Source of the DNA: the human T2T-CHM13v2.0 reference genome, Homo sapiens
Strand: one strand, 5' to 3'
Assembly: GCF_009914755.1 (NCBI RefSeq)
Contig: NC_060931.1
DNA: 64,000 nucleotides
Made by a program: the position numbers and the translations under genes. A model generated the notes under the pieces. It ran no database searches. It worked only from the letters and a program-made list of their open reading frames with translations, and was not told the DNA's origin. Position 1 is the stretch's first letter. Each line of letters starts with the position of its first letter. Positions 36,969 through 39,900 of this stretch are shown one piece after another.

Positions 36969-39900
36969 TTTTTTATTATACTTTAAGTTCTGGGGTACAT
37001 GTGCAGAATGTGCAGGTTTGTTACATAGGTATACACGTGCCATGGTGGTTTGCTGTACCCTTCAACCCATCATCTACATTAGGTATTTCTCCTAATGCTA
37101 TCCCTCAACCAGCCCCCCACCCACTGACAAGCCCCGGTGTGTGATGTTCCCCTCCCTATGTCCATGTGCTCTCATTGTTCACCTCACACTTATGAGTGAG
37201 AACATGTGGTGTTTCGTTTTCTGTTCTTGTGTTAATTTGCTGAGAATGATGTTTTCTAGTTCATCCACGTCCCTGCAAAGGACATGAACTCACTCTTTTA
37301 TAATGGCTGCATAGTATTCTATGGTGTATATATGCCACATTTTCTTTATCCAGTCTATCACTGATGGGCATTTGGGTTGGTTCCAAGTCTTTGCTATTGT
37401 GAACAGTGCCACAATAAACATATTTGTGCATGAGTCCTTATAGTAGAATGATATATGATCCTTTGGATATACAACCAGTAATGGGATTGTTGAGTCAAAT
37501 GGTATTTCTAGTTCTAGATCCTTGAGGGATTGCCACACTGTCTTCCACAATAGTTGAACTAATTAAACTCCCACCAACAGTGTAAAAGCATTCATGTTCT
37601 CCACATCCTCTCCAGCATCTGTTGTTTACTAACTTTTTAATGATTGCCATTCTAACTGGCATGAGATAGTATCTCATGGTGGTTTTGATTTGCATTTCTC
37701 TAATGACCAGTGATGATGAGCTTTTTTTTCATGTTTGTTGGCTGCATAAATGTCTTCTTTTGAGAAGTGGCTATTCATATCCTTCGCCCACTTTTTGATG
37801 GGGTTGTTTGATTTTTCTTACACATTTGTTTAAGTCTGGATATTAGCCCTTTGTCAGATGGATAGATTGCAAAAATTTTCTCCCATTCTTTAGGTTGCCT
37901 GTTCACCCTGATGATAGTTCCTTTTGCTGTGCAGAAGGCCTTTAATTAGATCCCATTTGTCAATTTTGGCTTTTGTTGCCATTGCTTTTGGTGTTTTAGT
38001 CATAAAGTCTTTGCCCATGACTATGTCCTGAATGGTATTGCCTAGGTTTTCTTCTAGGGTTTCTATGGTTTTAGGTCTAACATTTAAGTCTTTAATCCAT
38101 CTTGAATTAATTTTTGTATAAGGTGTAAGGAAGGGGTCCAGTTTCAGCTTTCTGCATATGGCTAGCCAGTTTTCCCAACACCATTTATTAAATAGGGAAT
38201 CCTTTCCCCATTGCTTGTTTTTGTCAGGTTTGTCAGAGATCAAATGCTGGTAGATATGTGGTGGTATTTCTGGGGCCTCTGTTCTGTTCCATTGGTCTAT
38301 GTATCTGTTTTGGTACCAGTACCATGCTGTTTGTGTTACTGTAGCCTTGTAGTATAGTTTGAAGTCTGATAGCATGATGTCTCCAGTTTTGTTCTTTTTG
38401 CTTAGGATTGTCTTGGCTGTGAGGGCTCTTTTTTGATTCTGTATGAAATTTGAAGTAGTTTTTTCCAATTCTGTGAAGAAAGTCAATGGTAGCTTGATGG
38501 GGATAGCATTGAGTCTATAAATTATCTTGGGCAGTATGGCCATTTTCATGATATTGATTCTTCCTATCCATGAGCATGGAATATTTTTCCATTTGTGTCC
38601 TCTCTGATTTCCTTGAGCAGTGGTTTGTAGTTCTTCTTGAAGAGGTCCTTCACATCCCTTGTAAGTTGTATTCCTAGGTATTTTATTATCTTTGTAGCAA
38701 TTGTGAATGGGATTTCACTCATGACTTGGCTCTCTGTTTGTCTGTTATTGGTGTATAGGAATGCTTGTGATTTTTGCACATTGATTTTGTATCCTGAGAC
38801 TTTGCTGAAGTTGCCTATCAGCTTAAGGAGATTTGGGGCTGAGACGATGGGGTTTTCTAAATAATGGGAGACGTTAACACCCCACTGTCAACATTAGACA
38901 GACCAACGAGACAGAAAATTAACAAAGATATCCAGGACTTGAACTCAGCTCTGGACCAAGCAGACCTAATAGACATCTACAGAACTCTCTGCCTGAAATC
39001 AACAGAATGTCCATTCTTCTCAGCAACACGTCTTATTTATTCTAAAATTGACCACATAATTGGAAGTATTGCACATAATTGCAAACAGTGATAATTTGAC
39101 TTCCTCTTTTCCTAATTGAATACCTTTTTTTTCTTTCTCTTGCCTGATTGCCCTGGCCAGAACTTCCAACACTATGTTGAATAGGAGTGGTGAGAGAGGG
39201 CATCCCTGTCTTGTGCCAGTTTTCAAAGGGGGGAATGCTTACAGTTTTTTCCTATATCAGTATGATATTGGCTGTGGGTTTGTCATAAATAGCTCTTATT
39301 ATTTTGAGATATGTTCCATCAATACCTAGTTTATTGAGAGTTTTTAGCATGAAGGGGTGTTGAATTTTATCAAAGGCCTTTTCTGCATCTATTGAGATAA
39401 TCATGTGGTTTTTGTCATTGGTTCCGTTTATGTGATGCATTATGTTGATTGAACCAGCCTTGCATCCCAGGGATGAAGCCGACTTGATCGTGGAGGATAA
39501 GCTTTTTGACGTGCTGCTGGATTCGGTTTGCCAGTATTTTATTGAGGATTTTCGAATTGAGGTTCACCAGGGATATTGGCCTGAAATTTTCTTTTTTGGT
39601 TGTGTCTCTGCCAGGTTTTGGTTTCAGAATGATGCTGTCCTCATAAAATGAATTAGGGAGGATTCCTTCTTTTTCTGTTGTTTGGGATAGTTTCAGAAGG
39701 AATGGTACCAGATCCTCTTTGTAGCTCTGGTAGAATTCGGCTGTGAATCTGTCTGGTCCTGGACTTTTTTTGGTTGGTAGGCTATTAATTATTGCCTCAA
39801 TTTCAGAACTTGGTATTGGTCTATTCAGGGATTTGACTTCTTCCTGGTTTAGTCTTAGGATGGTGTATGTGTCCAGGAATTTATCCATTTCTTCTAGATT

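What the first reader, a model, noticed from the sequence alone, without database searches (positions are those of the whole stretch)
38860..39080. Self-templated inverted insertion removes the RT catalytic aspartates of L1-A
Seen: 209 bp (38860-39068) is an inverted copy of the same element's endonuclease region (40527-40735), sharing unusual states (gacagaccaac, ctgaaatcaac, atttattctaaaattg). It replaces about 15 bp encoding D-D-M-I-V, so the ORF reads [14 protein letters not shown] instead of [10 protein letters not shown]. The left junction has aata microhomology. The right junction has an 11-nt filler, ttgcacataat, built from adjacent sequence (cacataattg and tgca). Established: microhomology with locally templated filler is typical of polymerase-theta end joining or template switching. 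The hit on the active site may be chance. It also creates a 209-bp inverted repeat with a spacer of about 1.5 kb.
Basis: partly seen in the sequence, partly recalled or inferred. Interest (0 to 1): 0.75.

Follow-up and report, generated by a model that had tools for sequence, protein, structure and literature searches.

The report
Inverted self-copy inside a dead L1
An old, already decayed L1 retrotransposon in a MAGI2 intron had 15 bases of its reverse-transcriptase gene replaced by a backwards copy of 209 bases from its own endonuclease region, a real but ordinary scar of error-prone DNA break repair or replication.

Summary
Window 38860-39068 is an inverted copy (198 of 209 identical) of 40527-40735, the endonuclease region of the same minus-strand, near full-length L1 (about 36962-43572). 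It replaces 15 nt of the RT (the D-D-M-I-V codons). One junction has a 4-nt AATA microhomology. The other has an 11-nt filler that re-copies adjacent sequence.

Both junctions are unique in the T2T genome. The two arms share 7 states that are rare in 26 other L1 copies, and they are sisters in a tree (support 94/92). Six of the 8 host-private substitutions in the source arm are also in the copy. The host-private density in the arm (3.9%) matches the rest of the element (3.5%). The copy was therefore made from this element long after it integrated, not during retrotransposition and not from another L1.

The best reading is a microhomology-mediated template switch. This could be snap-back synthesis on a resected break, or a replication-fork switch. 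Which of these, and which polymerase, cannot be told from sequence.

The loss of the catalytic aspartates is most likely chance in an element already decaying. This is a known kind of mutation, larger and longer-range than usual. Interest is low.

The parts
36962..43572 (-). Host L1, near full length, same strand as MAGI2. The ends are approximate.
   Evidence: The 3' end with a degenerate A-rich tail was read. The 5' start motif is at 43545-43572. Pfam hits: Transposase_22 at 41581-41865, Exo_endo_phos at 40351-41028, and RVT_1 pieces in four ORFs spanning 38564-39930. ORF2 now lies in at least 10 stop-to-stop pieces.
40527..40735 (-). Source arm: 209 nt of the element's own endonuclease region (template of the copy).
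   Evidence: Carries 8 host-private states, 6 of them shared with the copy.
38860..39068 (+). Inserted copy. It reads as EN sense on the plus strand, so it is inverted relative to the host L1.
   Evidence: Sister to the source arm with support 94/92.
38860..38863 (.). AATA microhomology, shared by the end of the copy and the resuming RT sequence.
   Evidence: other copies read TATTTAGAAAACCCC on the L1 sense strand.
39069..39079 (.). 11-nt filler, ttgcacataat.
   Evidence: Matches neither the EN continuation nor the RT sequence of the 15 other copies displayed.
39072..39081 (+). Second copy of the 10-mer CACATAATTG (first copy at 39053-39062). It spans the filler and the first two RT bases.
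39080..39238 (-). RT piece upstream of the lesion, ending ...EVKLSLFA.
38564..38863 (-). RT piece downstream of the lesion, resuming at [16 protein letters not shown].
38990..39034 (.). Cluster of 7 of the 8 substitutions that are private to the copy, 34-78 nt from the filler junction.
   Evidence: Polarised against 26 other copies. Permutation P = 0.0023, post hoc.

Best explanation
Long after this L1 integrated, and when it was already decaying, a DNA strand end at the FADD-coding site of its RT region lost its proper partner. It primed by microhomology on the element's own endonuclease region 1.46 kb away, on a template of the same polarity, and copied 209 nt. That polarity is why the copy is inverted. 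The end then rejoined the original sequence 15 nt further on through a 4-nt microhomology (AATA/TATT).

The junction at the other end of the copy was untidy. An 11-nt filler contains a second copy of CACATAATTG, which points to at least one abortive round of anneal, extend and release.

Two physical settings give this product.
(a) A double-strand break resected by at least 1.7 kb, whose 3' single-stranded tail (the L1 sense strand) snaps back on itself. In that setting synthesis starts at the filler side and ends at AATA.
(b) A stalled or collapsed replication fork with a switch-and-return. This is the four-point type 3-2-1-4, whose mirror is 1-4-3-2.

Shown: the anatomy, the source, uniqueness in the genome, and timing after integration. 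Inferred: the setting, the direction of synthesis and the polymerase. The loss of the RT aspartates is a chance hit with no functional consequence.
For: Anatomy: as listed under the observation check.

Source is the same element.
- Both arms carry 7 states that are rare in 26 other copies (0-5 of 26 each). No other copy carries more than 3 of the 7.
- An ML tree of 28 rows puts the two arms together with support 94/92.
- The insert matches the arm at 198 of 209 sites; its best other copy matches at 192 of 209.
- Whole-genome pattern searches allowing up to 3 mismatches: in the first half only the two arms lie within 1 mismatch (55 hits in all). In the second half the arm's version has no hit under 3 mismatches (5 hits). 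The insert's version has no other hit (1 hit).

Unique event: the 28-nt left-junction word and the 30-nt right-junction word each occur once in the genome at up to 3 mismatches.

After integration.
- Host-private density is 58 of 1657 sites (3.5%) outside the arm and 8 of 204 (3.9%) in the arm. Six of those 8 are shared with the copy.
- Tree branch lengths: shared stem 0.027, arm tip 0.016, copy tip 0.045.
- The arms differ at 11 of 209 sites (5.3%). Twice the host-private density, the value expected had the copy dated from integration, would be about 7-8%.
- By my reading of the codons, at least 4 of the 7 shared states are non-synonymous. That fits neutral decay, not an active source lineage.

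Not an L1 insertion of the classical kind: no A-tail, and a 15-nt loss instead of a duplication.

Literature, passages read:
- The four-point template-switch model lists type 1-4-3-2 / 3-2-1-4 as creating an inverted repeat, 31% of its high-confidence events (PMC5453318).
- Snap-back extension gives reverse-complement inserts, and templated extension is error-prone at about 1 in 30 bp (PMC5068794).
- MAGI2 is a fragile site and CNV hotspot under replication stress in fibroblasts (PMC4315293).
Against: Size and range are atypical. Templated inserts in PMC5068794 are mostly under 25 bp and lie next to the break. The four-point survey searched only 100-200 bp around mutation clusters and excluded repeat-masked fragments.

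Timing rests on reading host-private states as post-integration mutations. Later gene conversion between the arms would mimic this.

The arm itself is only slightly closer to the copy (198 of 209) than to its best other copies (196 of 209: L004, L025).

The 8-versus-3 excess of changes on the copy is not significant (binomial P = 0.23), and the cluster test is post hoc.

The 26 comparison copies are the best-scoring hits only. Just 40 of 4720 and 40 of 5682 candidates were scored.

Three nt of the filler (TTG on the plus strand) have no clear template.

No outgroup genome could be examined, so the empty allele has not been seen.
Confidence: 0.75

Rival explanations
1. An RNA-templated patch. 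A break in the RT region was bridged by reverse transcription of a sense transcript of this same element: MAGI2 pre-mRNA, which contains the L1 in sense, or the L1's own RNA. This would be an endonuclease-independent, class-2 'templated sequence insertion'.
For: The insert meets three of the four structural criteria used for non-classical L1 insertions: 3' truncation, no TSD and no poly(A). The fourth, divergence from the EN site, was judged by eye only. A target deletion and microhomology are also present. (PMC1920257, passages.)

Copying a sense RNA gives the observed inverted orientation. The L1 lies in sense in a very large transcribed gene (hub annotation). Class-2 insertions are proposed to derive from RNA (PMC5110952, passages). 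The shared host-private states fit a transcript of this very locus as well as they fit its DNA.
Against: Nothing in the sequence demands RNA. There is no splice junction and no A-tail. Only 2 of the 8 copy-private changes are A-to-G. The re-copied 10-mer and the location 1.46 kb from the break in cis are explained more simply by snap-back on the same DNA strand. Class-2 insertions are described as coming from distant regions.
Confidence: 0.1
2. The inverted copy arose during the retrotransposition that created this L1, by reverse-transcriptase template jumping or a twin-priming-like side reaction.
For: The order of parts is: upstream sequence, inverted upstream L1 segment, microhomology, 3' part of the L1. 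This is the order twin priming produces, and L1 inversions are common. [quoted passage not shown]
Against: The 'upstream sequence' is the same L1 continuing colinearly for 4.5 kb with only 15 nt lost. That is not a twin-priming product.

An antisense EN template would not yet exist when first-strand synthesis reaches the RT region (inference from the direction of reverse transcription).

Six of the 8 host-private states of the arm are in the copy. No other genomic copy shares the combination. A source lineage carrying them would therefore have left no other offspring, while bearing several non-synonymous changes.
Confidence: 0.07
3. A fragment of a different L1, as cDNA or DNA, was captured at a break. 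Its likeness to the host arm is due to chance or to later gene conversion.
For: Thousands of similar L1 copies exist (4720 candidates). The structural criteria for endonuclease-independent capture are met.
Against: The own arm is the best hit. All 7 shared rare states occur together only in the two arms. The copy-private states occur in 0-2 of 26 other copies, and in no other locus at up to 3 mismatches.
Confidence: 0.03

Closest known systems
Template-switch mutations under the four-point model (Loytynoja and Goldman 2017, PMC5453318), type 1-4-3-2 / 3-2-1-4
   Same: One switch-and-return. [quoted passage not shown] A few bases are replaced and a new inverted repeat is created. No pre-existing repeat is needed.
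   Different: The copied fragment is 209 nt and its template is 1.46 kb away, whereas the paper searched 100-200 bp around mutation clusters. An 11-nt filler implies more than two switches. The fragment lies in masked repeat sequence, which the paper's filter excluded.
Snap-back templated insertions of polymerase-theta-mediated / synthesis-dependent microhomology-mediated end joining (PMC5068794, PMC2943611, PMC4912351)
   Same: A deletion plus an insertion at one site. The insert is a reverse complement templated in cis. Microhomology of 2-4 nt. Re-copied local sequence in the filler. Many errors in the copied tract.
   Different: Typical inserts are under 25 bp and are templated within a few bases of the junction. 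Here the tract is about ten times longer and the template 1.46 kb away. Polymerase dependence is untested. PMC2943611 and PMC4912351 were seen only in the search listing.
FoSTeS / MMBIR replicative rearrangements
   Same: Microhomology-primed switching to nearby single-stranded DNA in either orientation, with extra point changes near junctions. PMC4937565 reports elevated variant density around germline SV breakpoints (passages).
   Different: Those are usually kb-to-Mb copy-number changes with several joined segments. This is a 201-bp net gain confined to one repeat element.
Endonuclease-independent (non-classical) L1 insertions and class-2 templated sequence insertions (PMC1920257, PMC5110952)
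   Same: An L1-derived fragment truncated at both ends, with no TSD, no poly(A), a small target deletion and microhomology.
   Different: The donor is the recipient element itself, including its private decay mutations. It is not a then-active L1 and not a distant locus.
Twin-priming 5' inversion of L1
   Same: An inverted upstream L1 segment is joined by microhomology to the 3' part of an L1.
   Different: The inverted piece is internal, not at the 5' end. It is a duplication with the original retained. It postdates integration.

Membership tests
Four-point template-switch mutation | The middle fragment is a reverse-complement copy of nearby sequence and replaces the bases between switch points 1 and 4. 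| tested here: met
   209 nt, 198 of 209 identical, replacing 15 nt.
Four-point template-switch mutation | The switch-point order is one of the observed types, in which point 4 does not precede point 1. | tested here: met
   On the L1 sense strand the order is 3 (40735), 2 (40527), 1 (39080), 4 (38863). This is 3-2-1-4, the mirror of 1-4-3-2 (coordinates; definition).
Four-point template-switch mutation | Short range, within one replication fork. In the paper this means a template within 100-200 bp. | tested here: not met
   The template is 1458 nt from the insert.
Four-point template-switch mutation | The ancestral state is shown by an outgroup. | not testable with these tools
   No other primate genome is held. 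Paralogous L1 copies served as a proxy.
Polymerase-theta / SD-MMEJ snap-back templated insertion | A deletion plus insertion with microhomology at the junctions. | tested here: met
   15 nt are lost. AATA is shared at the left junction, and TG is shared between the re-copied 10-mer and the RT at the right junction.
Polymerase-theta / SD-MMEJ snap-back templated insertion | The insert is templated in cis in reverse complement, with signs of repeated anneal-extend-release. | tested here: met
   An inverted copy of the element's own EN arm. The 10-mer CACATAATTG occurs twice, 19 nt apart.
Polymerase-theta / SD-MMEJ snap-back templated insertion | A small insert (mostly under 25 bp) templated next to the break. 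| tested here: not met
   220 nt inserted, with the template 1.46 kb away.
Polymerase-theta / SD-MMEJ snap-back templated insertion | Dependence on POLQ. | not testable with these tools
   This needs genetics.
Endonuclease-independent (non-classical) L1 insertion | 3' truncation, no TSD and no poly(A). | tested here: met
   The insert ends inside the EN region. It is followed by ttgcacataat, not an A-run. The flanks show a loss, not a duplication.
Endonuclease-independent (non-classical) L1 insertion | The insertion site diverges from the L1 EN consensus TTTT/A. | tested here: inconclusive
   Judged by eye only. The nearest T-run is TTTTCT at 38853-38858, a few bases from the left junction. 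It was not scored.
Endonuclease-independent (non-classical) L1 insertion | The donor is RNA of a mobile L1 from elsewhere in the genome. | tested here: not met
   The copy shares 6 of the arm's 8 host-private states and is sister to the arm.
Twin-priming L1 inversion | The inverted segment forms the 5' end of the insertion and abuts non-L1 target DNA. | tested here: not met
   The same L1 continues colinearly for about 4.5 kb upstream, to 43572.
Twin-priming L1 inversion | Formed at the time of integration. | tested here: not met
   Post-integration private states are shared by both arms. This is an inference; no outgroup was available.

The most novel reading that the evidence does not exclude
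The lesion may be a germline fossil of unusually long-range (1.5 kb), long-tract (209 nt) snap-back synthesis on a deeply resected break. The filler and 7 of the 8 copy-private substitutions crowd into the first roughly 80 nt synthesised. That pattern would record an error-prone starter polymerase handing over to an accurate one.

As a by-product, the MAGI2 pre-mRNA gains a 209-bp, 95%-paired double-stranded RNA stem built from a single L1. Such a stem is a potential substrate for A-to-I editing or for innate RNA sensing.
Probability: 0.2. Interest if true: 0.45.

Novelty: new member of a known kind. Interest (0 to 1): 0.22.

Why it matters
Its weight is small. It is a well-resolved natural example that fills the size gap between short template-switch mutations (tens of bases, about 100 bp range) and kb-to-Mb replicative rearrangements.

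It also shows a usable trick. The private decay mutations of an old repeat can identify the donor of a templated insertion, polarise the differences between donor and copy, and time the event without an outgroup.

It corrects the tempting reading that the L1 was inactivated by this lesion. The element was most likely dead already, so the hit on the catalytic aspartates needs no explanation beyond chance.

Tried and rejected
1. Another locus as donor. Rejected by the genome search with the insert, the search with the arm region and three whole-genome pattern searches.

2. The structure was inherited from a source element with progeny. Rejected: each junction word occurs once in the genome.

3. 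Classical L1 insertion or twin priming. Rejected on anatomy.

4. Target-site duplication of the host L1. The longest exact matches between the 3' flank and the 5' side were two 9-mers, neither at the element's ends. The TSD is not resolved and was not pursued.

5. Other templates for the filler. TTGCACAT (39069-39076) also occurs at 38774-38781 (read). By my arithmetic one 8-mer match in 6.6 kb on two strands is near chance expectation, so no weight is given to it. Three filler bases remain unexplained.

6. Direction of synthesis. Both directions allow a stepwise microhomology account of the filler. Only the resection-polarity argument favours a start at the filler side, and that argument holds only for a two-ended break.

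7. Asymmetry of substitutions (8 on the copy, 3 on the arm). Not significant (P = 0.23).

9. PMC7615360 was opened for reverse-complement templated insertions. The passages were about substitution strand symmetry and did not bear on this.

10. A survey for lesions enriched at FADD in other L1s was not possible beyond the 15 copies displayed. None of them has an insertion there.

11. The L1 subfamily could not be named, because no repeat library is held.
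Full report
**What is there**

Window 38860-39068 and 40527-40735 are a 209-nt inverted repeat with 1458 nt between the arms. The gapless alignment has 198 of 209 identities.

The surrounding sequence is one L1 on the minus strand.
- Its 5' start motif lies at 43545-43572.
- Its A-rich 3' end is near 36962.
- Pfam finds the ORF1 domains at 41581-41865, the endonuclease domain at 40351-41028, and reverse-transcriptase pieces in four ORFs spanning 38564-39930.
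- The L1 has the same orientation as MAGI2 (hub annotation).
- ORF2 is now split into at least ten stop-to-stop pieces in different frames.

The arm at 40527-40735 is ordinary endonuclease sequence in its proper place. The arm at 38860-39068 sits inside the RT region in the opposite orientation.

**The junctions**

I aligned 20 other L1 copies fetched from the same genome and displayed 15 of them. All 15 read TTTGCA, then an uninterrupted 12-16 nt (15 nt in 13 of them), then TATTTAGAAAACCCC. Not displayed were L012, L018, L020, L025 and L028. In one search, four of these five (all but L020) give no colinear match reaching the site.

In the host those 15 nt, the D-D-M-I-V codons, are gone. Read on the L1 sense strand, their place holds an 11-nt filler followed by the inverted endonuclease copy.
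- RT homology on the downstream side runs to 38863 and endonuclease homology starts at 38860, so AATA is shared.
- At the other end endonuclease homology stops at 39068 and RT homology resumes at 39080.
- The filler (39069-39079) matches neither neighbour.
- With the next two bases the filler contains CACATAATTG, which also lies 19 nt away at 39053 inside the copy.
- The net change is +201 bp, which happens to be a multiple of three.
- There is no A-run after the sense 3' end of the insert, and no duplication of flanking bases.

**Where the copy came from**

A search of the whole assembly with 38800-39140 found only the locus itself over the full length. The best partial hit was the element's own arm (95%, 328 bits). 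The next were 92%, 301 bits. Only 40 of 4720 candidates were scored.

Each junction word occurs once in the genome at up to three mismatches.

I aligned the two arms with 26 other L1 copies. These were the 8 best other hits to the insert and the 20 best hits to the arm region, less two duplicates. This choice favours copies that resemble the arms.
- Both arms share seven states carried by only 0 to 5 of the 26: positions 40703, 40692, 40669, 40601, 40600, 40565 and 40559.
- No other copy carries more than three of the seven.
- A maximum-likelihood tree of the 28 rows joins the two arms with support 94/92.

Pattern searches of the whole genome gave the same answer.
- First half: only the two arms lie within one mismatch, among 55 hits at up to three mismatches. 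A few three-mismatch hits carry the same three rare states together with other differences.
- Second half: the arm's version has no other hit below three mismatches (5 hits).
- Second half: the insert's version has no other hit at all.

One weaker point should be stated. The arm is only a little nearer to the copy (198 of 209) than to its best other relatives (196 of 209). The case rests on the shared rare states, not on raw identity.

**When it happened**

Across about 2.2 kb I counted sites where the host differs from a clear majority of 20 other copies and at most two of them share its state.
- Outside the arm: 58 of 1657 sites (3.5%).
- In the arm: 8 of 204 sites (3.9%).
- Six of those eight are also in the copy.

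Three of the 20 copies are only partly colinear, which adds some noise to the counts.

The tree gives a shared stem of 0.027, an arm tip of 0.016 and a copy tip of 0.045. So roughly 60-75% of the arm's private change was already there when it was copied.

No other genomic copy shares the combination. By my reading of the codons, at least four of the seven shared states change an amino acid. These are therefore best read as decay after integration, not as variants of an active source lineage. The event was a rearrangement of a resident, decaying element.

With only three arm-only changes (Poisson interval 0.3-4.2% per site) the date cannot be placed on the primate tree. With neutral rates recalled from memory (about 0.1-0.2% per million years) the element would be a few tens of millions of years old, and the copy perhaps a third as old.

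Later gene conversion between the arms could mimic this pattern and cannot be excluded without an outgroup.

**The differences between the arms**

Polarised against the 26 copies, three of the 11 differences are derived in the arm and eight in the copy. That excess is not significant (P = 0.23).

Seven of the eight copy-private changes lie within 45 nt (38990-39034), 34-78 nt from the filler junction. They include two adjacent pairs. A permutation gives P = 0.0023, but I chose the test after seeing the data.

None of the copy-private states is common in other copies (0-2 of 26). They are not imported from another L1.

**Mechanism**

A strand end at the RT site primed by microhomology on a template of its own polarity, 1.46 kb away in the same element. 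It copied 209 nt and rejoined 15 nt ahead through four shared bases. The other junction shows at least one abortive re-copy.

In the four-point description of template switching (PMC5453318, passages) the order of switch points on the L1 sense strand is 3-2-1-4. This is the mirror of 1-4-3-2, the type that creates an inverted repeat.

Two settings fit.
- A two-ended break with long resection. Because resection removes the 5'-ended strand, the only template left in cis is the 3' tail itself. So the sense-strand tail would have snapped back on its own endonuclease region. Synthesis would have begun at the filler side and ended at AATA, where it annealed to the other end. Snap-back extension is described as giving reverse-complement inserts, and templated extension as error-prone at about 1 in 30 bp (PMC5068794, passages).
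- A stalled or collapsed fork with a switch and return. MAGI2 is a fragile site and copy-number hotspot under replication stress in fibroblasts (PMC4315293, passages), and raised variant density around germline breakpoints has been reported (PMC4937565, passages).

The sequence does not tell these two apart. It does not name the polymerase either. The tract is about ten times longer, and the template far more distant, than the usual polymerase-theta inserts.

**Rivals**

A patch reverse-transcribed from a sense transcript of this same locus would give the same product. It meets three of the four structural criteria used for endonuclease-independent L1 insertions, the fourth being judged by eye only (PMC1920257, passages). 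It is also in line with class-2 templated insertions (PMC5110952, passages). Nothing requires RNA, and I give it about 0.1.

An origin during retrotransposition is disfavoured by the colinear 4.5 kb of L1 upstream and by the shared private states (about 0.07). A foreign L1 fragment is disfavoured by every source test (about 0.03).

**Significance**

The hit on the catalytic aspartates is most simply chance. The element was already well decayed, and a motif-bearing site of some kind would have been noticed almost anywhere in ORF2. None of the 15 other copies displayed has an insertion at that site, and 0 of 26 other loci has any internal inverted self-match. There is no sign of a hotspot, though the sample is small.

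The two arms could pair in the MAGI2 pre-mRNA. The predicted duplex energy is -344 kcal/mol, against -67 (sd 6) for shuffled controls. I could not test whether this matters.

The event belongs to a known kind of mutation and is a larger, longer-range member of it. No search of the literature for this particular locus was possible by coordinates. The searches run were on mechanisms, not on the locus.

Noticed in passing
window 38864-39079: 216 nt replace 15 nt between the RT-homologous flanks, a net gain of 201 bp. This is a multiple of three, so the downstream RT frame is formally kept, although the insert itself holds stops.
   Followed up: partly
window 40687-40730: All three substitutions derived in the source arm after the copy was made (40730, 40714, 40687) lie within 44 nt at the AATA end. 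The 81 nt at insert positions 38909-38989 show no difference between the arms. With three sites this is near chance, and it was not tested further.
   Followed up: no
window 38860-39068 with 40527-40735, minus-strand transcript: The L1 is in sense within the MAGI2 intron, so the pre-mRNA would carry both arms. Predicted RNA duplex energy is -344 kcal/mol, against -67 for shuffled controls. This is a possible long double-stranded RNA stem made from a single L1.
   Followed up: partly
window 38774-38781 and 39069-39076: The first 8 nt of the filler (TTGCACAT) also occur about 290 nt away in the RT region on the same strand. By simple arithmetic this is near chance expectation for an 8-mer in 6.6 kb on two strands.
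   Followed up: no
window 34384-35038: Direct repeat families with 369-377 nt spacing and 74-81% identity. They look like two adjacent Alu-type elements.
   Followed up: no
window 36880-36985 and 43573-45000: No clear target-site duplication was found for the host L1. The longest exact matches between the flanks were 9-mers away from the element's ends.
   Followed up: partly
whole window (MAGI2 intron, 7q21.11): MAGI2 is reported as a common fragile site and copy-number hotspot under replication stress in human fibroblasts (PMC4315293). This is context only, and its relevance to the germline is unknown.
   Followed up: partly
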